A stretch of 46,787 nucleotides of DNA from an uncultured Candidatus Saccharibacteria bacterium. GTDB taxonomy: Bacteria; Patescibacteriota; Minisyncoccia; Phycocordibacterales; JACOZG01. Location of the stretch: positions 1-46,787 of the forward strand of contig CAYUHC010000004.1 of NCBI GenBank assembly GCA_964444555.1. The letters are read 5' to 3'. Positions 15,014 through 46,717 of the stretch are shown here, piece by piece. Both the position numbers and the translations under genes were made by a program. The notes beneath the pieces are model-generated. The model made no database searches. It worked only from the letters and a program-made list of their open reading frames with translations, and was not told the origin of the DNA. Position 1 is the first letter of the stretch; every line of letters starts with the position of its first letter.

Positions 15014-15015
15014 AC

Positions 15016-18024: not shown

Positions 18025-20434
18025 ATGGTTTAAAAATTTACTGCTGATCTCACTCGTCCTGCTTGGTGCGGGGTGGGGTAACAAAGCGTGGGCCCAGAAT
18101 GCTTCAGGTATGTCTGGGGCTGTAAACGCAGCGGCTCAACAAAATCCTAAAAATCAACCAAAAGCCCTCCAGGTCAGCCAGCAAATTGCGGCTCTAGACA
18201 AAAAACTTGCCCTAGATCCAACCAATCAAACCTTACTCGACCAAAGAAAGTTTATGCTCCTAGAGTACGGTTGTTACTCGATGGGCGTTTGCAATGATGC
18301 TGTCCAAGGAGGAGAGTGGATTCCGATGTTTGTCACCGGTGGAGAATTAGACACCTGGAACTACGCTCGACTCATGGCCATGGTCAGACACCTGTCACAG
18401 CAAAAAGATCCAATCAATTACTACGACGATGTACGTAATGCCATTACAAGTCAGCACCAAGCTTTATTAGCATCTTTAGATCAAGACCCAAATCTAAAAG
18501 CCAAAGCCGAGCAACGGGCCGCGGCATTACTAGGCAACGACGTTCGTGTCGAAAACGCCGATGACCTAAAATGTAGCATCTTTGATCTGCAACTTGGCAA
18601 CTGTCTTTTGGTCTTTGTGAGGGCGGCTAATGTTTACGTCTTAGAACCTGCCAGTAGCTTGTTGGTTGGCCTCGCCAACGAAATTTTTGATCTGTCATTC
18701 AAATATTCGGTCCGAGATTTTGGCACCTACTTAAAAGCGCCCACTAACGCGCCGATCGTGGCTGGCTGGACAGTGGTCCGAGACTTCGTCAACATCGTCT
18801 TTATCTTTGCCTTGCTGTATGCCGCCCTCTCACTGATCGTCCAGATTCGGGGCTTTAATCAAGGCGTTGATGGCAAAAAACTGGTCGGCTACATCGTGGT
18901 CGGCGCTCTGCTAGTTAACTTTAGCGCCTTCTTTGTGGGTATCGTAATCAATCTGAGCAACTCCCTAGCCAACCAGATCTACTGTACCGCGGCCGATTGC
19001 AGCAAGGAGACTCCCGACCTAGCCATCAATTTAGTGCGCTTCAATAATCGAGAACTTTATAAATTACACAACGCCAATAACGGTTTCGAGGTAGCGATCA
19101 AGGGAGCATTTATCGGTTGGGGAACCGTCCTATTCAGCGTGATCACGGCAATCTCGCTACTAGTCGCCGCTTTGCTAATGATCATTCGCTTTATCCAATT
19201 AATCCTGGTGATCGTCTTCTCACCAATCTTGTTTTTGGGTTCAACCTTTGGGATCTTCAGCGGTCTAGCTAAAAAAATAAAAGATACGCTACTAAAACAA
19301 GCTATTTTCGCCCCGGCCTTCCTCTTTATGATCCTGATTATTACCAGATTCGTAAGCAATAACGGCCTATTTAATGACAACTTAACCACTCTCACCAGCG
19401 CAGCCATCTACGTCGTGATCCTCAATGGCCTGATTATCTCCAGCATGCTGTTGAGCAATTACATGGGACTTTACGGCGCCGCCACTCTCAATACCTACGG
19501 CAAAAAAATGATCGGGGGAGCCACTGTTGGCGCGGCGGGACGTTTGGGTCGCGCCACCATTGGGCGAGCGGGCAAAAATTTGACGGAAAGTGGCAGCTTG
19601 CGAGATGCGGCCAGCCAGCGAGGGGCTCGTGGCTGGATTGCTCGCCAAACGTTGCGAGCTGGTGATACAGCTTCCAAGCTAAGCTTTGACGCTCGGGCAG
19701 TTGACTCAGTTAAAAAACTTGGACTAGGCAATGCTCAAAAGGGTGGTTACGTTGGCGACATCAAGAAAAAGGCAGAGATCGCCGATAGAGACGCTAAGCT
19801 TTTGGCGGGCAAAGACAGCGCGGGGAATGAAGTAAGTGCTCGCGAAAATGAACGCGTAGAAGGAGTAAGACTTGAGGCAACCAATAATGCTCAAAAAATT
19901 AGGGAACAAGCTGAAAGCGCGAAAGCCACTGCAATCTCCAGTGCCGAGCCCCAAATTACAGCCAAGGAGGCAGAGTTAGCTCGAGAACTAGATCAGATTC
20001 GGCAAGATGCTAATTCTCAGCTAGATAGTGGTTCAAGCAATCCTGAAGACGTAAAAGCCGAAAGAGAAAATAAGGAGGCACAGGTTCGCGATCGTATCAA
20101 CGGGGAAGTTGAAAAAATTAAAAAACTTCGTGACGAAGAGATCGCCAAGGCCCAAAAAGAAATTGATCTATCAGAAGAGATCAAAACCAAAACAGATAAG
20201 ATCCAGCCTCGTAAGCGCATTCAAGAATTGGCTGACCAGTTTGACGATCAAGAAGGCAAAGAACCTCAATCATGGTATCGCTTTAACCGTTGGCGCGGCA
20301 AGGTAACGCGCACGCGCAAGGCTCAAGCCGCGGCCATCCGTAAACAAGCTAAATCACCACAAGAAAAATACAAAGAAAACCTAAATAAACTTCTCGAACA
20401 AGTCGAAAAACCACCAGAAAAACCAACTGCCTAA
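18017..20434 (+). CDS. VirB6/TrbL-like polytopic membrane protein with a long charged C-terminal tail
   Basis: A signal or TM segment is followed by an extracytoplasmic domain of about 230 aa and about 6 hydrophobic helices (residues ~250-480). The final ~300 aa are K/E/R/A/Q-rich. The assignment rests on topology and context, not on a motif match. Confidence 0.6.
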   Translation: MNKWFKNLLLISLVLLGAGWGNKAWAQNASGMSGAVNAAAQQNPKNQPKALQVSQQIAALDKKLALDPTNQTLLDQRKFMLLEYGCYSMGVCNDAVQGGEWIPMFVTGGELDTWNYARLMAMVRHLSQQKDPINYYDDVRNAITSQHQALLASLDQDPNLKAKAEQRAAALLGNDVRVENADDLKCSIFDLQLGNCLLVFVRAANVYVLEPASSLLVGLANEIFDLSFKYSVRDFGTYLKAPTNAPIVAGWTVVRDFVNIVFIFALLYAALSLIVQIRGFNQGVDGKKLVGYIVVGALLVNFSAFFVGIVINLSNSLANQIYCTAADCSKETPDLAINLVRFNNRELYKLHNANNGFEVAIKGAFIGWGTVLFSVITAISLLVAALLMIIRFIQLILVIVFSPILFLGSTFGIFSGLAKKIKDTLLKQAIFAPAFLFMILIITRFVSNNGLFNDNLTTLTSAAIYVVILNGLIISSMLLSNYMGLYGAATLNTYGKKMIGGATVGAAGRLGRATIGRAGKNLTESGSLRDAASQRGARGWIARQTLRAGDTASKLSFDARAVDSVKKLGLGNAQKGGYVGDIKKKAEIADRDAKLLAGKDSAGNEVSARENERVEGVRLEATNNAQKIREQAESAKATAISSAEPQITAKEAELARELDQIRQDANSQLDSGSSNPEDVKAERENKEAQVRDRINGEVEKIKKLRDEEIAKAQKEIDLSEEIKTKTDKIQPRKRIQELADQFDDQEGKEPQSWYRFNRWRGKVTRTRKAQAAAIRKQAKSPQEKYKENLNKLLEQVEKPPEKPTA

Positions 20435-20437
20435 TCT

Positions 20438-21217
20438 ATGACTACCAACCCCTTAATTGAGCGTCTTAACGAATTGCCAGCCGAGTGGCGAGCGGATCTT
20501 AAGAAGATCAATCTACCGGAAGTCATTAGCAAACTCGCAACGGACTACAAATTAGACGCCGAACAAACCAGCCAACTAGAAGCAGAAATCCTACTCATCG
20601 CCACCGGTCTAGAGTACCGCGAAAGTTTGCCGACCAATCTGATGGCGGCACTCCACACCGATTCGGCCAAACTAATTTCGATCAAAGAACGACTGGAGCG
20701 TGAGGTTTTTAGTCCTCTAGCCAAACATCTCGACCAAACCGAGCAGGAGATCAAACGGGCCGAGGCGGAGGAGCGGGAAAAATATAAGCACCTGCCAGCC
20801 GAACTACAAGAAGTGATTCTCGACGCCCACACCGAAGAGACCTTAGCCGCCCTAAGCGATAAGTATCAACTCCACATTGACCAAGCCGGCGTCCTTTACG
20901 ACGTCACCGATCAAGTCCTGACGGGCAAGATTAAAGCTCGAGACTTTGTGGCGGAACTAGTCCGCACCTCCTCGCTCAGCACGGAATTAGCCAATAAGCT
21001 GGCGGGGGATCTCAACCAGCAATTATTCCAACCCGTCCAAGCTACTCTCCGCGCGCTAGAAAATCAGCCCCCAACCGTCTTCGAAGCAAAGTTAAAAGGA
21101 CTCTGGAGCGGCAACCAAAATCAAAGTTCGAGCGAAATTTTGATCAAACCCCAACCCGCCACCACCGCCACCACGCCCGCCAAAGTTGCCGATCCCTACC
21201 TAGAACCCTTAGAATAA
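20438..21217 (+). CDS. Hypothetical cytoplasmic acidic protein with two internal helical repeats
   Basis: The 259-aa protein has no hydrophobic segments. It carries a repeated module, ISKLATDYKLDAEQTSQLEAEILLIATG... and LAALSDKYQLHIDQAGVLYDVTDQVLTG.... It is tightly packed within the cluster. Confidence 0.6.
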   Translation: MTTNPLIERLNELPAEWRADLKKINLPEVISKLATDYKLDAEQTSQLEAEILLIATGLEYRESLPTNLMAALHTDSAKLISIKERLEREVFSPLAKHLDQTEQEIKRAEAEEREKYKHLPAELQEVILDAHTEETLAALSDKYQLHIDQAGVLYDVTDQVLTGKIKARDFVAELVRTSSLSTELANKLAGDLNQQLFQPVQATLRALENQPPTVFEAKLKGLWSGNQNQSSSEILIKPQPATTATTPAKVADPYLEPLE

Positions 21218-21221
21218 AGTC

Positions 21222-21623
21222 ATGAACTTCCAAGTACCCCAATTTATCGAGGTCGAAGACAAAATTTTCGGCCCCTTTACCTTTAAACAATTCGTCTACT
21301 TGGCCGGTTCAGCTGGCGCCGCCTTTTTAATTTGGGTTTACATCCCGGTTCGCTTTGTTGCCTTGATTTTCGTCATTCCTGTTTTAATCTTAGGCCTCTT
21401 ATTAACCTTTTACCGAGTTAATAACCGTCCGTTTGTTTCTATTTTAGAGGCTGCGGCTCGCTATGCCTTAACTCACAAACTTTATATTTGGCAAAGATCT
21501 AGCACTCCCACCAAAACTAACGTCACCGCGCCCACTGCCTCCGGTTTAAAAATTCCCAAGCTCTCTGATAGCAAACTAAAAGACCTCTCCTGGAGTCTAG
21601 ATGTGAAAGAAAAAATCCAGTAA
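21222..21623 (+). CDS. PrgI-family (VirB3-like) small membrane protein
   Basis: The N-terminus VPQFIEVEDKIFGPFTFKQFVYLAG is followed by two TM helices, the pattern of PrgI-family T4SS proteins of monoderm bacteria. It lies immediately upstream of the VirB4-like genes. Confidence 0.7.
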   Translation: MNFQVPQFIEVEDKIFGPFTFKQFVYLAGSAGAAFLIWVYIPVRFVALIFVIPVLILGLLLTFYRVNNRPFVSILEAAARYALTHKLYIWQRSSTPTKTNVTAPTASGLKIPKLSDSKLKDLSWSLDVKEKIQ

Positions 21624-21643
21624 CAATGGTACACTAATAGGCA

Positions 21644-22291
21644 ATGGCCGCTGACACTAAAGCCAAAGCTTCACAAGAATTTATTCCGATTAAAGAAATT
21701 CGGGATGGGGTAGTAATCCTCAAAGATGGGGGAATGCGTTTAGGTTTGATCGTTTCGTCGATTAACTTTGCGCTCAAGTCCGCCGACGAACAAACAGCGA
21801 TCTTGCTCCAGTTCCAAAACTTTCTTAACTCGCTGGATTTCGACATCCAACTCTTTGTGGAATCACGCAAACTAGATATCGCGCCCTACCTCACCATGCT
21901 AGAGGAAAGATTGGTGGCTCAAACTAACGATTTAATGAAGGTCCAAACTCGAGAGTACATCGAATTTATCAAAAAATTTACCGAAACCACCGACATTATG
22001 TCGAAGAGTTTTTTCGTTATCGTCCCTTTCAATCCTTCGATTATTAGTGGCGCCAAATCGCAAAGTCTGATTGGCCGCTTCTGGCCCGGGAGCCAGCAAT
22101 CGCCGAGCGTCGAGCAAGACCAGCTTAATAATTTTGAAGAAAATCGCACTCAATTAGAACAACGAGCGGCCGTCGTCGCCGGCGGCCTGGGGGCCGCCGG
22201 CCTCCGAGTCTCTCAACTCGGCACCGAAGAATTGGTCGAGTTATACTTTAAGATGTTTAACCCAGGGGAGCGCGAAATCCCTTCGATCTAA
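21644..22291 (+). CDS. Hypothetical protein resembling the N-terminal module of VirB4/TrsE-type ATPases
   Basis: FIPIKEIRDGVVILKDGGMRLGLIVSSINFALKSADEQTAILLQFQNFLNSLDFDIQLFV parallels the start of the next gene (LRDVIAPSALKV...RTFYVISYP...FDISIHIHPID). No P-loop is present. Confidence 0.55.
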   Translation: MAADTKAKASQEFIPIKEIRDGVVILKDGGMRLGLIVSSINFALKSADEQTAILLQFQNFLNSLDFDIQLFVESRKLDIAPYLTMLEERLVAQTNDLMKVQTREYIEFIKKFTETTDIMSKSFFVIVPFNPSIISGAKSQSLIGRFWPGSQQSPSVEQDQLNNFEENRTQLEQRAAVVAGGLGAAGLRVSQLGTEELVELYFKMFNPGEREIPSI

Positions 22292-22295
22292 ATTT

Positions 22296-24131
22296 ATGTC
22301 TTTATTTAATTTTGGCAAAAAAACTGAGGCCACGCCCACGCTCACTCCCATCCTGCCTCAAGATATTTACCAACTGGGAGTCTTGCAGCTGCGCGACGTC
22401 ATCGCTCCATCGGCACTTAAGGTGACGCCTAAGATGCTCCATCTTGGCGATCGATTGGCACGCACTTTTTACGTTATTTCTTACCCGCGATTCCTGTCTG
22501 GCGACTGGTTTTCCCCGATCATCAATCTCGACAAAATTTTTGATATTTCGATTCACATCCACCCGATCGATAGCGCCTTGGCTCTGCGCCAACTAGAAAA
22601 GAAGGTAGCCGAAGTGCAAAGTCAGATCAGCATGAAAGAGGATCGGGGATTGGTCCGTGACCCGGTGCTCGACACGGCCTACCAAGACATCGAAGATCTT
22701 CGCGATAGTCTCCAACAAGCCCGCGAAAAGATTTTCGATGTCGGAATTTATATCACGATTTATGGTGATAGCGAAGAAGATCTCGACCGAGTGGAAACCG
22801 AGGTTAAAGGGATTCTCGATGCTAAATTAGTCTACTTAAAGCCCGCTCTATTCCAACAGGCCGAGGGCTTCCGCAGTGTCTTGCCTACCGCCACCGACGA
22901 ACTAAGCGTCAATTACAAACTTAATTCTTCGCCCCTGTCGAGCGTTTTTCCCTTCGTCTCTTTTGACCTCACCTCCAACCGCGGCATTCTTTACGGCATC
23001 AATCGCCACAACTCCAGCCTCGTGCTCTTTGACCGCTTCTCGCTCGAAAACTACAATTCAGTGATCTTTGCCAAATCTGGTTCGGGCAAATCTTACGCCA
23101 CCAAATTAGAAATCTTGCGTAGCTTAATGTTTGATACCGATGTCATCGTCATTGACCCCGAGCGCGAATACGAATTCCTCTCCGAAGCGGTTGGGGGACG
23201 ATACTTCAACATCTCACTCTCTTCCGAACATCACATCAACCCATTCGATCTCCCTTTCCCGCGAGAGGATGAGTCACCGGCCGATGTTCTCCGTTCCCAC
23301 ATCATCAATCTCGTCGGACTCTTTCGCTTAATGCTCGGCGGCCTCACGCCAGAAGAAGATGCGATTATCGACCGCGCTATTACCGAAACTTACGCCCTCA
23401 AAGACATTACCGCCGACATTGACTACACCACCAAACCGGCGCCACTTCTCTCAGATTTGGAATTAGTCCTGGCGGGCATGGAGGGCGGGGAGAGCTTAGC
23501 ACAACGTCTGCTTAAATATACTCGCGGCACCTGGTCCGGCTTTATCAACAAGCCAACCAATGTCGACATCAACAAGAAATTTATTGTTTTCTCCGTCCGC
23601 GACATGGAGGATGAGTTAAAGCCGGTGGCAATGTACATCGTCATGCACAATATCTGGAACTCCATCCGACGCAATCTTAAAAAGCGCCTGTTGGTAATCG
23701 ATGAAGCGTGGTGGATGATGAAATCCAAAGACACCGCTTCTTTCCTCTTCTCGCTCGTTAAGCGAGGGCGCAAATATTATCTCGGCGTCGCGACAATTAC
23801 CCAGGACGTGGGTGACTTCTTGCGCTCGGAGTATGGCACGCCAATCATTACCAACTCCTCAATCCAGCTCTTACTCAAACAGTCGCCAGCTTCGATTGAC
23901 CTTGTCCAACAAACCTTCCAATTAACCGACGAAGAAAAATATTTACTCCTCGAGTCAGCGGTCGGGGAGGGGATCTTCTTCGCGGGCCTAAAGCACGTCG
24001 CAATCAAAATCATTTCTTCTTACACCGAAAATCAAATTATCACTTCTGATCCGTCAGAAATTTTGGCCATCCGCCAAGCCAAAAAGGACTTAGCAACTCT
24101 AAACAACAATGAAAGCGTCCCCGAAAATTAG
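22296..24131 (+). CDS. VirB4/TrsE-like type IV secretion ATPase
   Basis: Walker A is FAKSGSGKSYATK and Walker B is KRLLVIDEAWWMM. The downstream ATITQDVGDF motif is present. The N-terminal domain has the YPRFLSGDWFSPII pattern typical of VirB4 of monoderm systems. Confidence 0.85.
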   Translation: MSLFNFGKKTEATPTLTPILPQDIYQLGVLQLRDVIAPSALKVTPKMLHLGDRLARTFYVISYPRFLSGDWFSPIINLDKIFDISIHIHPIDSALALRQLEKKVAEVQSQISMKEDRGLVRDPVLDTAYQDIEDLRDSLQQAREKIFDVGIYITIYGDSEEDLDRVETEVKGILDAKLVYLKPALFQQAEGFRSVLPTATDELSVNYKLNSSPLSSVFPFVSFDLTSNRGILYGINRHNSSLVLFDRFSLENYNSVIFAKSGSGKSYATKLEILRSLMFDTDVIVIDPEREYEFLSEAVGGRYFNISLSSEHHINPFDLPFPREDESPADVLRSHIINLVGLFRLMLGGLTPEEDAIIDRAITETYALKDITADIDYTTKPAPLLSDLELVLAGMEGGESLAQRLLKYTRGTWSGFINKPTNVDINKKFIVFSVRDMEDELKPVAMYIVMHNIWNSIRRNLKKRLLVIDEAWWMMKSKDTASFLFSLVKRGRKYYLGVATITQDVGDFLRSEYGTPIITNSSIQLLLKQSPASIDLVQQTFQLTDEEKYLLLESAVGEGIFFAGLKHVAIKIISSYTENQIITSDPSEILAIRQAKKDLATLNNNESVPEN

Positions 24132-24429
24132 TGGTTTAAACGCCATTGGCTTAGTAATCGTTAGCTTATTCTTCGACATCTTAAGTTTTGTCCCACTTTT
24201 AAACATTATTACCGGCTTGATTGGTTGGTTCATTTTTTCTTTGTGGTTCTTCCTGCTCGGCTTTGGTTTACTGGAGGGGCGCCGACTCGTCACCATGATG
24301 TCTTCAATGATTATTGAGGTTGTTCCTTTCCTGAGTTGGCTACCCACAATGACTATCGGTGTTATCGCGCTCATTCTAATGGTAAACTTAAAGCGTGTCT
24401 TACCTCTCCCCAAAGTTGATTCTCGTTAG
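24109..24429 (+). CDS. Small polytopic membrane protein (106 aa)
   Basis: It has three to four hydrophobic helices and no recognisable family. It overlaps the VirB4-like stop by 23 nt. Confidence 0.55.
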   Translation: MKASPKISGLNAIGLVIVSLFFDILSFVPLLNIITGLIGWFIFSLWFFLLGFGLLEGRRLVTMMSSMIIEVVPFLSWLPTMTIGVIALILMVNLKRVLPLPKVDSR

Positions 24430-25138
24430 TCTCGCATTCCTAACCTCGAGTCTAACCGCCTACGCTCAAACCGCTCCCATTGTTGATCTAATTTGGGAAG
24501 CCGATAGTTATTTACCGGCTTTTTACCCCGGCCATAGCCGGCCAGCTCCCGGTAGCACCGTCCGCCTGGCCGCTTTGGCTCACTTTACTGATCCAGCCAC
24601 CGGCCGAAGTTTGGGGCCAGAGAGTCTCACTTACACTTGGTCTAAAAACGGCCAAACCATGGCTGGCGTCTCGGGATTAGGTAAAGATTCAATTATTTTT
24701 AGCGCTACCGAGCAAGCTATTTTTCGGGTCGCCGTAAGCTACCCGGCCAGTGGCGTAAGCGCGGCCAGCCAAGTCTCGATTAGCCCTCAGCCCGCCCTGA
24801 TTAAACTTTATTACGAAGAACCACTCTTGGGTACGGCCTACCATCAACCCGTCGCCACCACCTTTGAGATGCCCGAAGGTGAGATCAATTTGAGAGCCGA
24901 ACCGTTTTATTTTTCCAAAAACGCTTATCTCAACAAAAAAATCCAATTCCAATGGACCATCAACGGCGAAAATATTGTTTCTGACGCCGCCGATCCGGGT
25001 TTAATCACGATCGCCAAGCCAGAAACGGGGGTGGGGGAGAACGCTTTTACCGTCACGGCCAAAAATTTAGCTAACGTCTTGCAAACCGCGACTAATAAAT
25101 TCACAATTAAGTTCAACAGCAGTAATATTTCTTTTTAA
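24395..25138 (+). CDS. Secreted protein of unknown function (247 aa)
   Basis: The start is GTG and the signal peptide ends in LTAYA-QT. The composition is beta-rich. Confidence 0.6.
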   Translation: MSYLSPKLILVSLAFLTSSLTAYAQTAPIVDLIWEADSYLPAFYPGHSRPAPGSTVRLAALAHFTDPATGRSLGPESLTYTWSKNGQTMAGVSGLGKDSIIFSATEQAIFRVAVSYPASGVSAASQVSISPQPALIKLYYEEPLLGTAYHQPVATTFEMPEGEINLRAEPFYFSKNAYLNKKIQFQWTINGENIVSDAADPGLITIAKPETGVGENAFTVTAKNLANVLQTATNKFTIKFNSSNISF

Positions 25139-25140
25139 CC

Positions 25141-25503
25141 ATGAACCCTCTTTACGCCGCTCAAAATACCAAACAAGTCGTGCTTATTCCTAACGCCATC
25201 ATCCCTGGCACCGAAAATCCCCAAGACTTCACTGATTTTGTCGGTGGCCTTCTACCTCAGATCATTACCGTTTTAGTCCTGCTCACCGTTATCTCGCTCG
25301 CGTGGTGGGGGATTGGCTACTTTCTAAAAAACATCCCGGGCTTTAAGTCTTATGCCAAAACGAGAATTTGGGACATTATTTTAGGTCTAATCCTAATTTT
25401 TGGCGCCTATCTCATTTTGCAAGTGGTCAACCCCAACATCAACAACAGTAAAATCTTTGATAACTCTTTAAATCAGATCAAGAATTCGAGCCCAGCCAAG
25501 TAA
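25141..25503 (+). CDS. VirB2/TrbC-like pilin candidate (120 aa)
   Basis: It has a short N-terminal region and then two hydrophobic helices (LLPQIITVLVLLTVISLAWWGIGYF and IWDIILGLILIFGAYLILQVV). This matches the size and topology of T4SS pilins. The call is made from topology only. Confidence 0.5.
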   Translation: MNPLYAAQNTKQVVLIPNAIIPGTENPQDFTDFVGGLLPQIITVLVLLTVISLAWWGIGYFLKNIPGFKSYAKTRIWDIILGLILIFGAYLILQVVNPNINNSKIFDNSLNQIKNSSPAK

Positions 25504-25506
25504 ATC

Positions 25507-26730
25507 ATGCGGCGCCTTCTTATTATCATCCTTTTAGTAGCCATCAGCTTAGCCGGCGGCGGCTGGTGGTTGTGGCAAAGAGCCCAAACCAGTGGCGTTC
25601 TTTACGAGCCGCCAGCGGCTACCATCAACTTCCCCAAAGGCGAGGACCGCCCAGGCACCAGTCGCTCAACCAGCAGCGCCACTCTGATTCTGCCAGACCT
25701 CTCAAGTGGCCCACTCCAAACAGCCTCTAATCGACCGGTGGTCGGCGTGATGAGCTTCGGTTCGGCGTCTTCGTCCCTAGAAATCTACGCCGAAGCGGTG
25801 AGTGGTCATCTTTATCTCGCCGGTGGCGGCCGCCTCTCCAACACCACCATCGCCGGACTACGTCGGATCGTCGGGGCTAGCCAGGGCAAAAACATCAAAC
25901 TCCTTCTGACGACTCAAACAGGAACCATGCCCGAAACTTTGCTCGCCACCTTTATTCCACCCAAAGAAAACGCCAACAGCTTCGTTGATAACATCGAATC
26001 CGAAACCGCCCTCCAAACTCAAACACTATCTCGGCTAATTAGAGAACCGGTCATCAGTCCAACAGGCGATGCTTGGGCCTATCTCACCCCCAAAGGGACC
26101 AAAACTGAAGTCGTGATTAATCAATTCAGCAGTAGTAGTCCAATTTCGCTTTATTCTTCGCCGCTCGAAGAATGGATTCTCGATTGGCCAGCAACCTCGA
26201 CCATCACCCTTCAAACCAAACCCGCCAGCTTTATTTCTGGTACTTTAATTGGCCTAAATCCAAAAACTAAAGTGGCGACTCGACTAATCGGCGGGGTATC
26301 GGGTCTCTCAGCCAATCTAAGCCCCGATGGCCAAGCCATCGTCTACAGCGGCGCCGCCACTAATGGAATTTTTCTCGGACTTTACTACCCAGCCACGGAT
26401 CTATTAACCCGCGCACCTTTTATCACTCTGGCCGATAAGTGCACTTGGTCTAAAGATAGTCAAACTCTTTACTGCGCAGTCCCCAAAACCATCCCCACGG
26501 GCAATTATCCCGAAGATTGGTACCAAAGTAACGTTAATTTTAGCGATATTTTCTGGAAATTCGACCGCCGAACCAACCGAGCAGAAATTATTTACAATCC
26601 CGAATTAGCCAATCCTAGTCGGTCGCTTGATGCCGCCAATCTAGTCGTCAGCGTGGATGAAAGCAAACTCTACTTTAAAAATAAAGCTGACCAACTTCTC
26701 TGGAGTCTTAACCTTAAGACAGGATTTTAG
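25507..26730 (+). CDS. Membrane-anchored or secreted protein, possible beta-propeller (TolB-like repeats)
   Basis: The N-terminal TM is LLIIILLVAISLAGGGWWLW. Repeats of the type SPTGDAWAY and SPDGQAIVYSG resemble TolB/DPP-IV-type propeller blades. This is the last gene of the cluster and converges on yidC. Confidence 0.55.
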   Translation: MRRLLIIILLVAISLAGGGWWLWQRAQTSGVLYEPPAATINFPKGEDRPGTSRSTSSATLILPDLSSGPLQTASNRPVVGVMSFGSASSSLEIYAEAVSGHLYLAGGGRLSNTTIAGLRRIVGASQGKNIKLLLTTQTGTMPETLLATFIPPKENANSFVDNIESETALQTQTLSRLIREPVISPTGDAWAYLTPKGTKTEVVINQFSSSSPISLYSSPLEEWILDWPATSTITLQTKPASFISGTLIGLNPKTKVATRLIGGVSGLSANLSPDGQAIVYSGAATNGIFLGLYYPATDLLTRAPFITLADKCTWSKDSQTLYCAVPKTIPTGNYPEDWYQSNVNFSDIFWKFDRRTNRAEIIYNPELANPSRSLDAANLVVSVDESKLYFKNKADQLLWSLNLKTGF

Positions 26731-34292: not shown

Positions 34293-34430
34293 TTACATTA
34301 CTTCTTCCTCTTCTTCCTCATCGTCCTCGCCATCACCTTCGCCCAAGTCGGCTAGTTCATCATCCTCTTCTTCATCTAAAATTTCTTTTTCTTCGTCTAA
34401 CACATCATCTCCAAGAATTGAATCGTCCAT
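34293..34430 (-). CDS. Candidate very acidic microprotein (45 aa)
   Basis: Read by hand: MDDSILGDDVLDEEKEILDEEEDDELADLGEGDGEDDEEEEEEVM. It ends 10 nt before the bidirectional terminator. The plus-strand poly-Ser ORF in the track is its mirror image. No SD is present. Confidence 0.35.
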   Translation of the reverse strand: MDDSILGDDVLDEEKEILDEEEDDELADLGEGDGEDDEEEEEEVM

Positions 34431-34518: not shown

Positions 34519-35043
34519 TTAAGAAATATCTGTGGACAAAGCCGCCAGTCCAATCGCAATGGCGTCATATTCGTCATCATGTCGTTGGCCGTTTGGGAGC
34601 TTAACTAGTCGCTTAACCATGTTTTGTACTTGAGCTTTGTCGGCCTTGCCATAACCCGTGACGGCCAACTTGATGCTCTGGGGATTTAGTTCACGAATGC
34701 TAGCGCCCGCTTTGGCCGAAAGGTAGAGAATGACGCCTCGGGTCTCAGCCACAGCGCTCGCGGTTTTGCGATTAGTCGAGAAAAAAAGTGTTTCCAAAGC
34801 GACCAGATTTGGTTGCCACTCGCTGATTAGATCTTCTAGCTGCTGACCAATTTCTGCTAGTCGATCGGGAAAAGAGTTGGTTTTTTTGGAGGTGAGGCAG
34901 GTCGAAAACTTTACGACCTCGCGACCTTGTTCGCGTTTGATCACTGCGACGCCCAATCGGTCGTAACCAGGATCAAGGGCCAGCACGGTTAACTGATCTT
35001 TAGAGATCGGGGACATTGGTGGTGACGGTTTTGACGTCCTCAT
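34519..35043 (-). CDS. ruvC: Crossover junction endodeoxyribonuclease RuvC
   Basis: VLALDPGYDRLGVAVI carries the catalytic Asp. Also present are LVALETLFFSTN and DDEYDAIAIGLA. An alternative start at 35016 (MSPISKDQ) would shorten the overlap with yebC. Confidence 0.85.
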   Translation of the reverse strand: MRTSKPSPPMSPISKDQLTVLALDPGYDRLGVAVIKREQGREVVKFSTCLTSKKTNSFPDRLAEIGQQLEDLISEWQPNLVALETLFFSTNRKTASAVAETRGVILYLSAKAGASIRELNPQSIKLAVTGYGKADKAQVQNMVKRLVKLPNGQRHDDEYDAIAIGLAALSTDIS

Positions 35044-35536
35044 TTTCTTCTAAGGCATCGAGGAGGTCGGCTAGTTGTTGCGCCTCAAATTCGGTGATTT
35101 CTAGCGGCGAGAGGGGCGCCCAACCAAGATCAGTTTTTTTAAAGGCCCAGGTGACGGAACCTGGTGTGGCCAAGTTTGATCCATAGAGGGAGAGGAGGTG
35201 TTTAAGTTCTTGAGAGGTGCGATTTTTGTTATCGGTGATGCCTTCAATCAGAATGGCGCTACCGCCCGGGCCGTAGGCTTCGTAGAGAACCTCTGTTAAG
35301 TCCGCGGCACCAGCCCCCGTCGCCGAGGCGATGGCTCGCTCGATATTCTCGTTCGGCATATTAACGGCTCGGGCACGTTCGATGGCCGAACGGACCTTGG
35401 GGTGGTGGCGGTCGCCGCCGGCTCTTTTGATCTCTACATTGATGGCCTTGGCGTGCATGCCAAAAACCTTGCTTCGTTTTTGATCTTCGACTCCTTTTTT
35501 TCTTTTGATTTGTGACCACTTGCTATGACCAGACAT
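35000..35536 (-). CDS. yebC: YebC/PmpR family DNA-binding regulator (short, 178 aa)
   Basis: MSGHSKWSQIKRKKG and YEAYGPGGSAILIEGITDNKNRT are canonical. By eye, about 60 residues of the usual third domain appear to be missing relative to typical ~240-aa members. Confidence 0.85.
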   Translation of the reverse strand: MSGHSKWSQIKRKKGVEDQKRSKVFGMHAKAINVEIKRAGGDRHHPKVRSAIERARAVNMPNENIERAIASATGAGAADLTEVLYEAYGPGGSAILIEGITDNKNRTSQELKHLLSLYGSNLATPGSVTWAFKKTDLGWAPLSPLEITEFEAQQLADLLDALEENEDVKTVTTNVPDL

Positions 35537-35653
35537 GTCGGCAGTTTATCATATTTAGGGAGGCCTAACCCTTGACAATATTTTAATTAAATGCTAGTTT
35601 CCCGATGAACGAACTCGGGTGAGTTCGAGGTCTTTTTAAGGAAGGAGCGCATA

Positions 35654-36277
35654 ATGCGCCAGGCGATGTGGAAGATTGTGGCGGTGGTGGCGGTGGCAGG
35701 GATGACGGCGACGACGGCCTCGGCGAACTCGATCGTGGGGGTGAATTATTCTCATGATCGGTTTGATGTGAGCGTCAACCACGGTTACGGTTATCAGGAC
35801 CGGGCGGTGGCATCGGTCGATCTGTCGAGCGCGGCTCGACAGATCGACGAGGTACGCACGCAGATCACCCCCATCTGGGGCGACGATCCCGGGCTTACCG
35901 TTTGGATGACTTTTTACGGGCGCCTGGAGGCGCCCGGCAAGCCCAAGCGGTGGCTACATCTCGGCCAGGCCGTCGAGGGCCTGGAACTCGGATCGTCGCT
36001 CGGTGGTGGCAGTGACGACCAGAAGGTCGTTGATTATGCCCATACTTGGGTGTACGTTGATGGTTTTAGTTGGTCCGGCGCTTGGACCAACTACCACACC
36101 TTCCCGTATGGGAAGGGCAGTCTCAACCAGCCGATGGGTTTCCAGTGGACGTTCGCGTTCACTGGAAGTTTCGAGGATCCGGTCAAGGGGCGAGCGACGC
36201 TCGCGGCCTTGCCGGAGCCGAGCGCGGCCTTACTCCTTATAATTGGCGCCGTTCCTTTTTTGCGGCGCCGGCGTTAA
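35654..36277 (+). CDS. PEP-CTERM sorting-signal protein (207 aa)
   Basis: The signal peptide is MRQAMWKIVAVVAVAGMTATTASA. The C-terminus LPEPSAALLLIIGAVPFLRRRR-stop is a textbook PEP motif, TM helix and Arg cluster. A strong SD AAGGAAGGAG lies 6 nt upstream of the ATG. The sequence is GC-rich (40 of the first 60 nt are G or C). Confidence 0.75.
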   Translation: MRQAMWKIVAVVAVAGMTATTASANSIVGVNYSHDRFDVSVNHGYGYQDRAVASVDLSSAARQIDEVRTQITPIWGDDPGLTVWMTFYGRLEAPGKPKRWLHLGQAVEGLELGSSLGGGSDDQKVVDYAHTWVYVDGFSWSGAWTNYHTFPYGKGSLNQPMGFQWTFAFTGSFEDPVKGRATLAALPEPSAALLLIIGAVPFLRRRR

Positions 36278-36311
36278 GATGGTAGAGAGTTGAGTCGTGC
36301 GCTGGCGACTC

Positions 36312-36357
36312 CCCCGGGTGAGCACTTAATTGTGTCACCCGGGGTTTTTCTTTTTTT
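36312..36357 (+). terminator. Strong intrinsic terminator after the first PEP-CTERM gene
   Basis: A 10-bp stem CCCCGGGTGA/TCACCCGGGG with a 13-nt loop is followed by TTTTTCTTTTTTT. Confidence 0.8.
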
Positions 36358-36465
36358 AAAATGGGACTTATGCACAACCGAACAGAGCTATATATGCTAG
36401 AGTAATAAAAGAAGAGTCCGGTGTTCGGATTCGCTCAGTCCTTTTTGAGTGAGAGAGGAGGATTT

Positions 36466-37149
36466 ATGCGCGGAATTTTGATTGGTTGGTGCTTGTTTGG
36501 GCTGGTTGATTTCGCTTCGGGGACCACCATTAGGATGGCGTCTGGCTACGCTCCCAATCGGGCTTGGGCTTCTCTGACTGGCGCCTTGGCGGTAGAGACG
36601 GCCAACCACAGCTTTGTGTTTTGGGAGACGGACGAGGGCGCGCGCTGGAATCTAACCCTGTCCGCCACGGGTAGAGTGGTGACTGCCGAAGCTGGTAGCC
36701 CGCCAATTTTTGGTAGTTATCAAATTCCCGGGCACGATTTGGTGGCTAGGTGGGAGATGCTTTTGCCTGGTGATTGGTATGCCACGGCTGACGTTTGGGG
36801 TGGAGTTATCGAGAGCGCGACCCCAATGCTTGAAGCCCTGGGTGACGATCGCTGGCGGGCGGCCATTTTTATTACCGGCCAAACCGCGCCCGAACCGAGT
36901 TTGCTTTTTAGTTTTGTGGTTTTGGCTCTTTGGTTAAACACCCGCCGGAGGGGGCGGGTGTTTTTGTTGGTTTTAAAGCAGTTTGTCTTGCGCGGCTTCG
37001 GGGTAATCGTAACCCAAATGGTCGTAGGCTTTTTTGGTAACGACGCGACCGCGAGGGGTCCGTTCCAAAAATCCGAGTTGGATCAGGTAAGGCTCGTGGA
37101 CTTCTTCGATGGCGGCATCTTCTTCGGAGGTGGCGGTGGCGATCGTTGA
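36466..37149 (+). CDS. Second PEP-CTERM-type protein; the 3' end is doubtful
   Basis: The start is taken at ATG 36466 with AGGAGG 4-5 nt upstream (the track ORF begins at 36421). The signal peptide is MRGILIGWCLFGLVDFASG. APEPSLLFSFVVLALWLNTRRRG is a PEP-CTERM signal, but no stop follows. The frame runs on antisense to ruvB up to 37149. The biological end is probably near 36975. Confidence 0.55.
   Translation: MRGILIGWCLFGLVDFASGTTIRMASGYAPNRAWASLTGALAVETANHSFVFWETDEGARWNLTLSATGRVVTAEAGSPPIFGSYQIPGHDLVARWEMLLPGDWYATADVWGGVIESATPMLEALGDDRWRAAIFITGQTAPEPSLLFSFVVLALWLNTRRRGRVFLLVLKQFVLRGFGVIVTQMVVGFFGNDATARGPFQKSELDQVRLVDFFDGGIFFGGGGGDR
36938..36965 (+). terminator. Intrinsic terminator embedded in the codons for the Arg cluster of the second PEP-CTERM gene
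   Basis: A 9-bp stem ACACCCGCC/GGCGGGTGT with loop GGAGGG is followed by TTTTTGTTGGTTTT. It lies 12 nt from the ruvB stop codon on the opposite strand. Confidence 0.6.
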
Positions 37150-37983
37150 GACTCCCACTGGTCCGCCATTAAATTTTTCGATAATGGTTTCTAAAATTTT
37201 TCGATCGGTGCTGGTTAAGCCGTGTTCATCAATCCCCATTAAATTAAGAGTATCTTGAACCACTTTTTTATTAATTGACTGCTTATTGAGTTGCGCAAAG
37301 TCTCGACAGCGTTTTAGAAATTGGTTAGCGATGCGCGGGGTGAAGCGGCTTCTCTCGGCGATGATGTGGGCCGCTTCTGGTTCTAATTGGATATTGAGAA
37401 TGTCGGCCGAGCGAGAGACGATCGTGGCAATTTCTTGAGGAGTGTAAAATTCGAGGCGGAAAGTGCCACCCGAAAAGCGTGATCGGAGTGGCGAAGAGAG
37501 GAGGGCAATGCGCGTAGTGGCCGCGACGAGCGTAAATGGCGGTAGGTCTAGTTGGATGACGCGTGCTCCCGGCCCCTTGCCGATAATGATATTGAGATTG
37601 CCCGACTCCATCGCTGGGTAAAGCACCTCTTCGATTAGTTTGTTAAGCCGATGGATCTCGTCAATAAAGAGAATATCGCCCGCTGATAGGTTGGTGAGAA
37701 TTGAGGCCAAGTCACCGACCTTTTCGATCGCTGGGCCGGAGGTAACCTTCATTTGAGCGCCTATTTCCTTAGCAATTAGGTGGGCGAGCGTTGTTTTGCC
37801 GAGCCCAGGTGGGCCATAAAACAAGAGGTGTTCCGGTGGGTGCTTGCGCTCGGCGGCCGCTTTCAGTAGAATCTTCAGGTTGTCTTTTATTGAGGATTGA
37901 CCCACATAATCATCCCACGAGTCTGGTCGCAGGGCGCTGTCGTTAAAACGTTCTGATTTGTCGGAGGGGGTTATGCTTGACAT
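36973..37983 (-). CDS. ruvB: Holliday junction branch migration helicase RuvB
   Basis: LRPDSWDDYVGQ, Walker A GPPGLGKTT and Walker B ILFIDEIHRL are present. The C-terminal winged helix is EPYLIQLGFLERTPRGR. Confidence 0.95.
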   Translation of the reverse strand: MSSITPSDKSERFNDSALRPDSWDDYVGQSSIKDNLKILLKAAAERKHPPEHLLFYGPPGLGKTTLAHLIAKEIGAQMKVTSGPAIEKVGDLASILTNLSAGDILFIDEIHRLNKLIEEVLYPAMESGNLNIIIGKGPGARVIQLDLPPFTLVAATTRIALLSSPLRSRFSGGTFRLEFYTPQEIATIVSRSADILNIQLEPEAAHIIAERSRFTPRIANQFLKRCRDFAQLNKQSINKKVVQDTLNLMGIDEHGLTSTDRKILETIIEKFNGGPVGVSTIATATSEEDAAIEEVHEPYLIQLGFLERTPRGRVVTKKAYDHLGYDYPEAAQDKLL

Positions 37984-42756: not shown

Positions 42757-43269
42757 ATGCGGCTTGGCCTTTTTTCTAAACCAGAAGTTTTGCTCGCGGT
42801 GCCTTTTTTTAAGCAAGATCGTAATTTTACCTGCGGGCCTACTGCCGTCCAAATGGCCTGCGCTTTTTGGGGCGCTCGGTTGAGCGAGTCTAAGCTGGCT
42901 AAATTGGCCCACTCTAGTCCTCTCGGCACTTCTCATGGCGGCCTATTGCAAAGTGTTCTCGACGCCCGTCTGTATTGTTATCTTAATGCTGATACTTCGA
43001 TTGAGGAAATTAAATATCTCCTGCGTAGCGGTTGGCCGGTGATTGTTAATTACACCGAGCCATCGACCAATGATGGTCATTACGCCGTAGCGATTGGTTT
43101 TTCTGATCGATCAATTATCCTTAACGATCCGTGGAATGGTCCCAACTTTAAGTTGCCTTGGCCGGAGTTTGAGCGACGTTGGTATGATCATGGACTTCAC
43201 CGATCTAGTCGCTGGCTTTTGGCGGTGGCTGATCAGCCCTTTACTCTCGGGAGAACTTACGCGCCATGA
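42757..43269 (+). CDS. Stand-alone C39-like papain-fold cysteine peptidase domain protein
   Basis: The Gln/Cys region is FFKQDRNFTCGPTAVQMA, the His region is NDGHYAVAIGF and the Asp region is IILNDPWNG. There is no ABC transporter fusion and no obvious signal peptide. Confidence 0.65.
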   Translation: MRLGLFSKPEVLLAVPFFKQDRNFTCGPTAVQMACAFWGARLSESKLAKLAHSSPLGTSHGGLLQSVLDARLYCYLNADTSIEEIKYLLRSGWPVIVNYTEPSTNDGHYAVAIGFSDRSIILNDPWNGPNFKLPWPEFERRWYDHGLHRSSRWLLAVADQPFTLGRTYAP

Positions 43270-46634: not shown

Positions 46635-46707
46635 GCCCTGTTAGCTCAGTTGGTAGAGCAGCTGCCTTTTAAGCAGACGGTCGCAGGTTCGATTCCTGCA
46701 CAGGGCA
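46635..46707 (+). tRNA. tRNA-Lys (anticodon TTT)
   Basis: Acceptor is GCCCTGT/ACAGGGC and the D arm is GCTCAGTTGGTAGAGC. The loop CTTTTAA gives anticodon TTT. T arm is GCAGG-TTCGATT-CCTGC. The next bases are CTT, so no CCA is encoded. Confidence 0.9.
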
Positions 46708-46717
46708 CTTGGATACG

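What the first reader, a model, noticed from the sequence alone, without database searches (positions are those of the whole stretch)
35560..36975. GC-rich, Shine-Dalgarno-bearing island encoding two PEP-CTERM proteins with no exosortase in sight
Two plus-strand genes sit between minus-strand yebC and ruvB. Each encodes a signal peptide, a domain of about 150 aa with no family I recognise, and a textbook PEP-CTERM sorting signal (LPEPSAALLLIIGAVPFLRRRR and APEPSLLFSFVVLALWLNTRRRG). Three sequence features mark the block as foreign. First, 40 of the first 60 nt of gene 1 are G or C, against 28 of 60 in a sample of the neighbouring pilB gene. Second, both genes have strong AGGAGG-type ribosome-binding sites (35638-35647 and 36455-36461), while native genes in the window have essentially none. 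Third, the block has its own TTGACA-type promoter (35571-35576) and strong private terminators. By established knowledge, PEP-CTERM signals are processed by exosortase (EpsH/XrtA family) and are associated with diderm, exopolysaccharide-producing bacteria. No polytopic exosortase-like ORF is in this window, and the rest of the window looks like a reduced, probably monoderm-like organism. Possible explanations are recent horizontal acquisition (perhaps from a host bacterium), an unrecognised sortase partner, or a chimeric assembly.
Basis: partly seen in the sequence, partly recalled or inferred. Interest (0 to 1): 0.7.

Follow-up and report, generated by a model that had tools for sequence, protein, structure and literature searches.

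The report
Native PEP-CTERM surface-protein cassette in Patescibacteria
Two small secreted proteins with a PEP-CTERM sorting tail are real, but they are not a foreign island: they are an old, fast-evolving cassette, apparently built for high expression, kept at one fixed chromosomal site in a clade of tiny Patescibacteria, a group not known to use this sorting system.

Summary
The description holds. Two plus-strand genes lie between yebC and ruvB. Each has a signal peptide, a domain of unknown family and a PEP/TM/Arg tail, plus its own promoter, Shine-Dalgarno (SD) site and terminator. Gene 1 is a composition outlier (GC3 0.73 versus 0.41-0.60). No exosortase is in the window.

The "foreign, recent HGT or chimera" reading fails. 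All relatives of gene 1 looked up, seven diverged lineages at 22-86% identity, sit in the same yebC-ruvB slot of syntenic Patescibacteria contigs. Synonymous divergence matches the flanking genes, and dN/dS is 0.15-0.29. The SD site is kept in every lineage, the TTGACA / TGnTAnnnT promoter in all seven aligned, and high GC3 in most. PEP and RRR are invariant. Other, unrelated PEP-CTERM genes occur nearby in two relatives.

So this is a native sorting-signal system. The proteins look like major surface proteins built for high expression. The processing enzyme was not found and could not be searched genome-wide.

One correction: gene 2 has no stop codon after RRRG. A conserved terminator hairpin encodes NTRRRG, and the stop was lost at least twice.

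The parts
35572..35600 (+). Promoter of gene 1: -35 TTGACA (35572-35577), 17-nt spacer, extended -10 TGCTAGTTT (35592-35600)
   Evidence: Sequence. TTGAC[A/G]A and TGnTAnnnT are invariant or nearly so in seven lineages (A5).
35610..35627 (+). Stem-loop in the 5' UTR (CGAACTC-GGGT-GAGTTCG), followed by TCTTTTT
   Evidence: Other lineages have different stems at the same place (GCTCC..GGAGC, GCTCT..AGAGC, GCCC..GGGC). A role in mRNA stability or regulation is inferred.
35638..35647 (+). Shine-Dalgarno site of gene 1 (AAGGAAGGAG), 6 nt before the ATG
   Evidence: A GGAGG- or GGGAG-type SD site is present before every gene 1 homologue.
35654..36277 (+). Gene 1, 207 aa: signal peptide (residues 1-24, ...ASA|N), beta-rich Trp/Tyr/Gly-rich domain of unknown family, and PEP-CTERM tail (residues 186-207, nt 36209-36274)
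   Evidence: dN/dS 0.19-0.29. GC3 0.726.
36292..36357 (+). Intrinsic terminator of gene 1: two stacked hairpins followed by TTTTTCTTTTTTT
   Evidence: The folded stretch 36278-36345 gives -36.5 kcal/mol, z = -4.9, with 0 of 200 shuffles as stable. Conserved in L003 and L001.
36395..36403 (+). Extended -10 box of the gene 2 promoter (TGCTAGAGT)
   Evidence: It has the same TGCTAG core as the gene 1 promoter. The gene1-gene2 intergenic region is 88% identical between window and L001, versus 72% for the CDSs.
36414..36461 (+). Gene 2 leader: stem-loop 36414-36432, a UCCUUUUU stretch that can pair with the SD site, and SD GAGGAGG at 36455-36461
   Evidence: Fold (z = -1.5, not significant on its own). 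Sequence is almost invariant in L003 and L001.
36466..36957 (+). Gene 2, conserved part of 164 aa: signal peptide (…FASG|T), domain of unknown family, and PEP-CTERM tail (residues 142-163, nt 36889-36954). The ORF has no stop here and continues to 37149.
   Evidence: dN/dS 0.15-0.23.
36936..36975 (+). Intrinsic terminator inside the gene 2 ORF. The stem AAACACCCGCC/GGCGGGTGTTT encodes N-T-R-R-R-G. The T-tract follows, and the 3' end abuts the ruvB stop (36973-36975, minus strand).
   Evidence: The hairpin is conserved in 5 lineages, while the adjacent TM-coding DNA is only 50% identical.
36958..37149 (+). Non-conserved read-through extension of the gene 2 ORF, antisense to the 3' end of ruvB. 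Probably not a functional peptide.
   Evidence: The length after RRRG differs by lineage: 7 aa (L007), 37 aa (L001, L003), 64 aa (window), 87 aa in another frame (L091).
35000..35536 (-). yebC, left border of the slot, transcribed divergently from gene 1
36973..37983 (-). ruvB, right border of the slot, convergent with gene 2

Best explanation
The block is a native, vertically inherited cassette of a Patescibacteria clade. The closest named relatives are Ca. Vogelbacteria / Paceibacterota. It encodes two unrelated secreted proteins, each ending in a PEP-CTERM-type tripartite sorting signal.

Each gene is its own transcription unit. It has a near-consensus sigma-70 promoter, a structured leader, a strong SD site and a strong terminator. 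It lies about 7 kb from oriC on the leading strand. This design suggests high expression, but that is inferred.

Proposed mechanism, all steps inferred. The proteins are exported through Sec and held in the cytoplasmic membrane by the C-terminal helix and Arg cluster. They are then recognised at the invariant Pro-Glu-Pro by a dedicated sorting enzyme encoded elsewhere in the genome, most likely an exosortase/archaeosortase-family protein. That enzyme removes the anchor and leaves the mature domain attached to, or released at, the cell surface. By this reading they are fast-evolving surface or matrix proteins, perhaps used in host or particle contact.

What is shown: the sequence features, synteny, conservation, selection regime and signal-motif invariance. 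What is inferred: export, cleavage, the identity of the enzyme and the expression level.
For: - Fixed site. All relatives of gene 1 looked up lie directly next to yebC, and between yebC and ruvB wherever the contig reaches that far (window, L001, L003-5, L007, L086, L087/88, L089/90, L091/92, L093, L094). A profile search of 1.84 billion representative proteins found only about 10 full-length members.
- Vertical descent and real coding. dS matches the flanking genes. dN/dS is 0.15-0.29, against 0.02-0.10 for the flanks.
- Invariant tail. In a 10-member alignment at 22-28% identity to gene 1, 6 of the 10 invariant columns are P-E-P and R-R-R. Gene 2 homologues keep PEP and NTRRR at 34% identity.
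- HMM support. TIGR02595 passes its cutoff in P0006 (25.1 bits), P0017 (22.9), P0019 (21.2), P0009 (20.5), gene 2 (16.3-18.5) and the second gene of L094 (18.6).
- Several unrelated substrates. Besides gene 1 and gene 2 there are L094 1649-2260 and L087 6661-7230, each with its own SD-led leader, and the L087 gene with a TTGACAA promoter.
- Conserved expression signals. The promoter is invariant in 7 lineages. An SD site is present in all. Intergenic regions are more conserved than the CDSs.
- Fits the original description. PEP-CTERM genes were described as single-gene operons with long upstream regions, signal peptides and no other homology (PMC1569441).
Against: - No exosortase, archaeosortase, rhombosortase or sortase hit in the 46.8-kb window. 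None is visible in the precomputed Pfam annotations of the 10 kb to the right on the relative's contig.
- Gene 1 itself scores below the TIGR02595 cutoff.
- The tail of gene 2 is not at the end of its ORF.
- PEP-CTERM was defined in bacteria that have an outer membrane and EPS genes. Patescibacteria are thought to lack both (established knowledge).
- No paper in the searched library links exosortase or PEP-CTERM with CPR bacteria.
- The G-ending codon bias of gene 1 differs from the C-ending bias of its neighbours and is unexplained.
- The structure models are too poor to suggest a function.
Confidence: 0.7

Rival explanations
1. Recent horizontal acquisition of a foreign island, for example from a diderm host.
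For: Gene 1 is a composition outlier (GC 0.61, GC3 0.73) with G-ending codon preference. SD-led translation stands out in a genome that otherwise lacks SD sites. In many related Patescibacteria, ruvB abuts yebC with nothing between them.
Against: The cassette is at the same site in lineages down to 22% protein identity. Its dS matches the flanks. High GC3 in most lineages and the SD site in all are conserved gene properties. The promoter uses the lineage's own TGCTAnnnT box. No integrase or flanking repeats were found. No non-Patescibacteria homologue of the domain turned up among 1.84 billion representatives.
Confidence: 0.03
2. Chimeric or mis-assembled contig.
For: None beyond the composition shift.
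Against: The same gene order and junction sequences appear in independent assemblies from different samples and pipelines.
Confidence: 0.01
3. Ancient transfer. A PEP-CTERM protein gene, perhaps together with a sorting enzyme, entered the ancestor of this clade from a PEP-CTERM-rich diderm and has been inherited vertically since. This concerns origin and is compatible with the best explanation.
For: The slot is empty or holds other cargo in sister lineages. The tails match canonical PEP-CTERM models built from diderm bacteria. Some members show weak similarity to the betaproteobacterial PepA family beyond the tail: P0008 residues 109-218 at 26.7 bits, and P0011 residues 4-105 at 22.6 bits. GC3 is persistently high.
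Against: The PepA scores are far below the cutoff of 80 and are partly driven by the tail and signal peptide. No donor-lineage homologue was found. Composition should have ameliorated over this much divergence.
Confidence: 0.25
4. The tail is only a C-terminal membrane anchor and is not cleaved. These genomes have no sorting enzyme. This would resemble Chlorobium tepidum, which had two PEP-CTERM proteins and no EpsH.
For: No enzyme was found in about 57 kb examined. Few PEP-CTERM genes are visible per genome, two per locus. The C. tepidum precedent is in PMC1569441.
Against: Pro-Glu-Pro is invariant across about 25%-identity homologues and across four unrelated protein families. That is hard to explain for a mere anchor. 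The loss of the stop codon in gene 2 is tolerated, as expected if the tail is discarded.
Confidence: 0.15
5. The signal is processed by an enzyme that is not an exosortase: a sortase, a CPBP/myxosortase-like or rhomboid protease, or a new family.
For: The envelope is monoderm-like, and sortases are common in CPR bacteria (established knowledge). New sorting-enzyme families are still being found for orphan signals (bioRxiv 10.1101/2023.06.07.544157).
Against: The motif is PEP[ST], not LPXTG, GlyGly or a Cys-containing motif. All hits are to PEP-CTERM models. The GlyGly-CTERM (MprA_tail) and LAVTG models score below their cutoffs.
Confidence: 0.1

Closest known systems
PEP-CTERM / exosortase (EpsH, XrtA) protein-sorting system (TIGR02595, PF07589; Haft et al. 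2006, PMC1569441)
   Same: N-terminal signal peptide. A domain with no known homology. A tripartite tail of Pro-Glu-Pro, a TM helix and an Arg cluster. Single-gene transcription units with long conserved upstream regions. Several unrelated proteins carry the same tail. HMM hits are above cutoff for gene 2 and for several gene 1 homologues.
   Different: The host is a Patescibacterium, with no outer membrane or EPS locus expected. No exosortase was seen. The promoter is sigma-70-like rather than the sigma-54 / PrsR type of Proteobacteria. Only two genes per locus are visible. Gene 1 scores below the cutoff. The tail of gene 2 is not at the ORF end.
PepA, flocculation-associated PEP-CTERM protein (NF033554; Aquincola/Zoogloea, PMC9850573)
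   Same: Small secreted PEP-CTERM protein (HMM of 261 positions). Own promoter and stem-loop terminator. High transcription. Weak HMM similarity that in two family members extends beyond the tail.
   Different: Scores of 16-27 bits against a cutoff of 80, so not a member. PepA is RpoN-dependent and betaproteobacterial, and it acts with EPS.
PGF-CTERM / archaeosortase A on archaeal S-layer glycoproteins
   Same: A tripartite C-terminal signal on abundant surface proteins in cells without an outer membrane. The anchor is removed and replaced by a lipid (PMC7157517 listed, plus established knowledge). This is the best functional analogy for a monoderm cell.
   Different: The motif is PGF, not PEP. 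The system is archaeal. No archaeosortase was tested or found here.
LPXTG / sortase
   Same: Same tripartite architecture. It is the usual system in monoderm bacteria.
   Different: The motif is [LAV]PEP[STG]. There is no Thr-Gly, and the LAVTG model scores 13.6 bits against a cutoff of 27.

Membership tests
PEP-CTERM sorting-domain proteins (TIGR02595) | Tripartite tail: Pro-Glu-Pro motif, about 20 hydrophobic residues, Arg cluster | tested here: met
   Gene 1 has LPEPSAALLLIIGAVPFLRRRR. Gene 2 has APEPSLLFSFVVLALWLNTRRRG. PEP and RRR are invariant in both families.
PEP-CTERM sorting-domain proteins (TIGR02595) | Tail at or very near the protein C-terminus | tested here: inconclusive
   Gene 1 meets this, with the stop directly after RRRR. 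Gene 2 does not meet it in the window ORF, which runs 64 aa further, but does in L007, which runs 7 aa further. A terminator lies inside the ORF.
PEP-CTERM sorting-domain proteins (TIGR02595) | HMM score at or above the curated cutoff (16 bits) | tested here: inconclusive
   Gene 1 scores 12.4 bits and fails. Gene 2 scores 16.3-18.5 bits and passes. Among gene 1 homologues, P0006 scores 25.1, P0017 22.9, P0019 21.2 and P0009 20.5, all passing. Nine of 10 members hit at E <= 1.
PEP-CTERM sorting-domain proteins (TIGR02595) | N-terminal signal peptide | tested here: met
   By inspection of the sequence and alignments: MRQAMWK + hydrophobic stretch + ASA|N for gene 1, and MRGILIGWCLFGLVDFASG|T for gene 2. 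No dedicated signal-peptide predictor was run.
PEP-CTERM sorting-domain proteins (TIGR02595) | Several instances per genome, on unrelated proteins | tested here: met
   Two in the window. Two within 12.5 kb in L087. Two in L094. Together these are four unrelated N-terminal domains. Whole-genome counts could not be made.
PEP-CTERM sorting-domain proteins (TIGR02595) | Co-occurrence with an exosortase (EpsH/Xrt family) in the same genome | not testable with these tools
   None in the window. None is visible in the precomputed Pfam annotations of 10 kb further on the relative's contig. Whole genomes could not be fetched.
PEP-CTERM sorting-domain proteins (TIGR02595) | Host has an outer membrane and EPS biosynthesis genes (original 2006 definition) | not testable with these tools
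   The window shows a Gram-positive-type T4SS (PrgI, VirB4), PBP1 and PilB. Patescibacteria lack an outer membrane by established knowledge. No EPS genes are in the window.
LPXTG / sortase substrates | LPXTG-type (or LAXTG) motif before the TM helix | tested here: not met
   The motif is [LAV]PEP[STG]. The LAVTG model scores 13.6 bits against a cutoff of 27.
GlyGly-CTERM / rhombosortase substrates | Gly-Gly motif and HMM above cutoff | tested here: not met
   MprA_tail scores 17.4 bits against a cutoff of 19.7 and matches only the TM and Arg part. There is no GG motif.
floc_PepA (NF033554) | Full-length HMM score of at least 80 bits | tested here: not met
   The best score is 26.7 bits (P0008). 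P0003 scores 16.6 bits on the tail only. Gene 1 itself has no hit at E <= 10.
Horizontally acquired genomic island | Absent from sister genomes, with independent divergence, mobility genes or flanking repeats | tested here: not met
   The cassette is present at the same site in all lineages of the clade. Its dS equals that of the flanks. No integrase or flanking direct repeats were found. Only the composition criterion is met.

The most novel reading that the evidence does not exclude
A clade of Patescibacteria (CPR bacteria), with a monoderm-type envelope and tiny genomes, runs a true PEP-CTERM sorting pathway for its major surface proteins using an enzyme that is not a recognisable exosortase. 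That enzyme would be either a new sorting-enzyme family or, more speculatively, the exosortase of a PEP-CTERM-rich host. In addition, gene 2 would routinely be expressed from stop-less, terminator-ended transcripts, because the C-terminal tail is discarded anyway.
Probability: 0.15. Interest if true: 0.8.

Novelty: new member of a known kind. Interest (0 to 1): 0.5.

Why it matters
Surface proteins of CPR/Patescibacteria are the likely mediators of attachment to hosts, and very few are known. This cassette gives a conserved and easily recognised locus, next to oriC between yebC and ruvB. It encodes surface proteins that evolve fast and appear to be highly expressed.

It also extends the PEP-CTERM signal to a lineage without an outer membrane, where it had not been reported in the literature searched. 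That creates a clear test: does this clade carry an exosortase or archaeosortase homologue, or is a new sorting enzyme at work?

The finding also shows that deviant GC3 and a Shine-Dalgarno site can be stable, selected properties of a native gene in a genome that otherwise starts translation without SD sites. They are not reliable marks of foreign DNA.

Tried and rejected
- Structure. AlphaFold2 models from 3-sequence alignments were poor (pLDDT 47 and 37). Foldseek against the PDB gave TM-scores of 0.24 or less. PDB sequence searches gave nothing.
- Domain families. Pfam found no domain in either protein. Gene 1 and gene 2 are not paralogues apart from the tail.
- RNA families. Rfam found no known family in the leaders or terminators.
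- Literature. Seven searches linking exosortase, archaeosortase or PEP-CTERM with CPR, Patescibacteria, Parcubacteria, Saccharibacteria or monoderm bacteria found nothing relevant. The 2012 archaeosortase paper is not held.
- Metagenome scan. The gene 1 family alignments were too diverged to use as a query.
- Walking the relative's 444-kb contig. One step through a cluster id gave 10 kb more, holding SpoU, Fpg, a Mur ligase, RuvA, S20, RuvX and PilM/N. It held no exosortase by Pfam annotation and no PEP-CTERM gene among ORFs of at least 100 aa.
- Other candidates in the window. The 805-aa protein with seven TM helices sits in a T4SS operon and has no exosortase hit. The C39 peptidase (42757-43269) is absent at that position in cassette-bearing L091. 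MgtC is a clear family match. All three were rejected as the sorting enzyme.
- Lipoprotein reading of gene 2. Rejected, because LIGWC is not a lipobox.
Full report
**1. What is there**

The stretch between yebC (35000-35536, minus strand) and ruvB (36973-37983, minus strand) holds two plus-strand genes.

Gene 1 (35654-36277, 207 aa) begins with a signal-peptide-like N-terminus (MRQAMWK-IVAVVAVAGMTATTASA|N). It ends LPEPSAALLLIIGAVPFLRRRR followed by a stop.

Gene 2 starts at ATG 36466. It has the N-terminus MRGILIGWCLFGLVDFASG|T and carries APEPSLLFSFVVLALWLNTRRRG.

Pfam finds no domain in either protein. NCBIfam TIGR02595 (PEP_CTERM, cutoff 16 bits) scores gene 1 at 12.4 bits and gene 2 at 16.3-18.5 bits. 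Apart from the tail, the two proteins are unrelated.

**2.

- Forty of the first 60 nt of gene 1 are G or C.
- Gene 1 has GC 0.611 and GC3 0.726. Gene 2 has GC3 0.60-0.61. The other 42 genes have GC3 0.41-0.60.
- AAGGAAGGAG (35638-35647) and GAGGAGG (36455-36461) are the only strong Shine-Dalgarno sites placed correctly before a clear gene start.
- Only 4 of 44 genes have any 5-mer SD core.
- Twenty of 44 genes instead have a TAnnnT box starting 11-18 nt before the start codon, against a background of 10%. This suggests leaderless or near-leaderless mRNAs.
- TTGACA lies at 35572-35577, followed after 17 nt by TAGTTT, which is preceded by TGC.
- Strong hairpin-plus-T-run terminators follow gene 1 (folded stretch 36278-36345: -36.5 kcal/mol, z = -4.9) and lie at the end of gene 2 (hairpin 36936-36963; folded stretch 36925-36980: -22 kcal/mol, z = -2.9).
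- No window protein scanned matches an exosortase, archaeosortase, rhombosortase or sortase model.

**3. Organism**

The window carries the following genes:
- dnaA and dnaN, with the cumulative GC-skew minimum at about 29 kb
- yidC and rnpA
- a class A PBP
- ruvC, yebC and ruvB
- pilB
- polA
- a Gram-positive-type type IV secretion operon (PrgI, a VirB4-like ATPase, a TrbC-like pilin)

A scan of one genome per species with YebC returned Patescibacteria. The closest named relatives are Ca. Vogelbacteria and Paceibacterota.

**4. The cassette is not foreign**

- A close strain (L003-L005) has gene 1 at 86% and gene 2 at 96% identity. A different species (GCA_964651115.1, L001) has them at 62% and 71%. 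Both have the same order ruvC-yebC-gene1-gene2-ruvB.
- A more distant genome (L007, YebC 67% identical) has both genes at 27-29% identity in the same place.
- A profile search of 1.84 billion representative proteins found only about ten full-length relatives of gene 1, at 22-28% identity.
- Every relative that was looked up lies directly next to yebC, and between yebC and ruvB wherever the contig reaches that far. The contigs are syntenic Patescibacteria contigs from NCBI, ENA, JGI and Logan assemblies (L086, L087/88, L089/90, L091/92, L093, L094).
- Between window and L001, dS of gene 1 (0.91) and gene 2 (1.04) falls within the range of the flanking genes (0.56-2.2). dN/dS is 0.15-0.29, against 0.02-0.10 for the flanks. 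These are real genes under purifying selection. They were inherited with their neighbours and evolve several times faster at the protein level.
- No mobility gene or flanking direct repeat is present.

Chimerism and recent transfer are therefore excluded.

In other Patescibacteria the same slot is empty, with ruvB abutting yebC. Elsewhere it holds different cargo: two small ORFs of 97 and 120 aa plus a secreted protein in L008, and a second pilB plus a kinase-like gene in L015. The slot is variable on a deep time scale, so an ancient insertion cannot be excluded.

**5. The marks read as foreign are conserved properties of the genes**

- Gene 1 homologues have GC3 0.68-0.78, against 0.47-0.65 for their neighbours, in most lineages. 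The excess is weak or absent in L089 and L093.
- All gene 1 homologues have a GGAGG- or GGGAG-type SD site. Neighbouring genes instead have a TGnTAnnnT box just upstream of the ATG.
- The gene 1 promoter (TTGAC[A/G]A, 17-nt spacer, TGnTAnnnT) is invariant in seven lineages. It is followed by a 5' stem-loop whose sequence differs between lineages while the stem is kept.
- The extended -10 box of the cassette promoters (TGCTAG..T) is the same box seen before the lineage's housekeeping genes.
- Intergenic regions are more conserved between window and L001 (83-88%) than the coding sequences (72%).

Taken together, the features are a consensus promoter, a structured leader, a strong SD site, a strong terminator, and a leading-strand position about 7 kb from oriC. 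This points to genes built for high expression, which is an inference. The G-ending codon preference of gene 1 remains unexplained.

**6. The tail is a true sorting-signal candidate**

In the 10-member gene 1 alignment, six of the ten invariant columns are P-E-P and R-R-R. Gene 2 homologues keep PEP and NTRRR at 34% identity.

Several relatives pass the TIGR02595 cutoff: P0006 at 25.1 bits, P0017 at 22.9, P0019 at 21.2 and P0009 at 20.5.

Two further PEP-CTERM genes with unrelated domains lie nearby in relatives:
- L094 1649-2260 (…VPEPTTFSFVLVGIWWLILSRRRC) lies downstream of the gene 1 homologue.
- L087 6661-7230 (…IPEPATLALLAPTALLLRRRRH) lies between the PBP gene and tyrS. It has a TTGACAA promoter, an SD site and what looks like a terminator.

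So one conserved tail sits on four unrelated domains, each encoded by a single-gene unit. That is the pattern by which PEP-CTERM was originally defined (PMC1569441). The general attributes of tripartite sorting signals are given in bioRxiv 10.1101/2023.06.07.544157. The motif is not LPXTG, GlyGly or Cys-containing.

**7. The missing partner**

No candidate enzyme lies in the window. None is visible in the precomputed Pfam annotations of the 10 kb to its right on the relative's 444-kb contig. Whole genomes could not be retrieved. No paper in the library connects exosortases or PEP-CTERM with CPR bacteria.

By analogy with archaeal PGF-CTERM and archaeosortase A, an outer membrane is not needed for this kind of sorting. 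I therefore favour an exosortase/archaeosortase-family enzyme encoded elsewhere. This is inference only.

**8. An oddity in gene 2**

The ORF does not stop after RRRG. The terminator TAAACACCCGCCGGA(G)GGGGCGGGTGTTTT is conserved in five lineages, although the TM-coding DNA just upstream is only 50% identical. Its stem encodes N-T-R-R-R-G.

- In L007 a TAA follows seven codons later and overlaps the complement of the ruvB stop.
- In the window clade one extra G shifts the frame. The ORF then runs 37-64 aa further, antisense to ruvB.
- In L091 a different change gives 87 aa in another frame.

The stop was therefore lost at least twice, and the extension is not conserved. Two readings fit. Transcripts may end in the U-tract without a stop codon. 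Alternatively, the variable cytoplasmic tail may be harmless because it is removed together with the anchor. This is unresolved.

**9. Function of the mature domains**

The function is unknown. The gene 1 domain is rich in Trp, Tyr and Gly and is predicted to be all-beta, but the models are of low confidence and match nothing. Two family members show weak similarity to the flocculation protein PepA that extends beyond the tail, at 23-27 bits against a cutoff of 80 (PMC9850573). That is a lead, not a membership.

**10. Verdict**

The foreign-island and chimera interpretations are refuted.

What remains is a native, clade-specific PEP-CTERM-type surface-protein cassette in Patescibacteria. It is a new member of a known kind of sorting-signal system, found in an unexpected lineage, with its sorting enzyme still to be found.

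Noticed in passing
window, upstream of 20 of 44 genes (e.g. dnaA 28080, yidC 27436, tyrS 33102, pilB 39928, mgtC 44050): A -10-like TAnnnT box (often TGnTAnnnT) starts 11-18 nt before the start codon in 45% of genes, against a 10% background. SD motifs are almost absent. This suggests mostly leaderless or SD-independent translation in this lineage.
   Followed up: partly
window 36936-37149: Gene 2 has no in-frame stop after its PEP-CTERM tail. A conserved terminator hairpin encodes NTRRRG, and the ORF runs on antisense to ruvB. The stop was lost independently in two lineages.
   Followed up: partly
window 14159-26730: A long plus-strand operon next to oriC encodes a Gram-positive-type type IV secretion system: PrgI, a VirB4/TraG-like ATPase, a TrbC/VirB2-like pilin, and an 805-aa protein with seven TM helices. 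It also encodes a 1002-aa protein with no family match and a TSP3-repeat protein.
   Followed up: partly
L008 3740-5824; L015 3333-5624; many loci with ruvB abutting yebC: The yebC-ruvB junction is a variable cargo slot across Patescibacteria. It can be empty. It can hold two small ORFs (97 and 120 aa, function not tested) plus a 311-aa secreted protein. It can hold a second PilB ATPase plus a kinase-like gene.
   Followed up: partly
window 34293-34430 (-); L091 8611-8742 (-); also L001, L086, L087, L089: A small (41-58 aa), extremely acidic ORF (MDDSILGDDVLDEEKEILDEEEDDELADLGEGDGEDDEEEEEEVM) is called downstream of ruvC in several lineages. Its function is unknown.
   Followed up: no
window 35816-35848: A perfect 15-bp inverted repeat with a 3-nt spacer (GTCGATCTGTCGAGC GCG GCTCGACAGATCGAC) lies inside the gene 1 coding sequence. 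It is degraded in L003 and L001, so it may be recent or due to chance.
   Followed up: no
L087 6661-7230 (-); L094 1649-2260 (+): Further PEP-CTERM genes with unrelated N-terminal domains occur near the cassette in two relatives. Both have an SD-led leader, and the L087 gene also has a TTGACAA promoter and a terminator-like hairpin.
   Followed up: partly
P0014, P0016 (and P0010, P0012, P0013, P0015): These are long database 'proteins' with several matched stretches that each hit the tail of the gene 1 profile. In P0014 and P0016, the two read, each internal PEP-CTERM tail is followed by a new signal peptide. They look like tandem PEP-CTERM genes fused by gene calling in other organisms.
   Followed up: no
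L086 4036-5754: A 572-aa Hint/intein-domain protein is inserted between dnaN and the PBP gene in one relative.
   Followed up: no
window 10-83, 627-699, 752-824, 3093-3178, 46635-46708: tRNA genes (Pro-CGG, Arg-TCG, Gly-GCC, Trp-CCA, Lys-TTT) lie near both ends of the contig. The window is the whole contig, 46787 bp.
   Followed up: no
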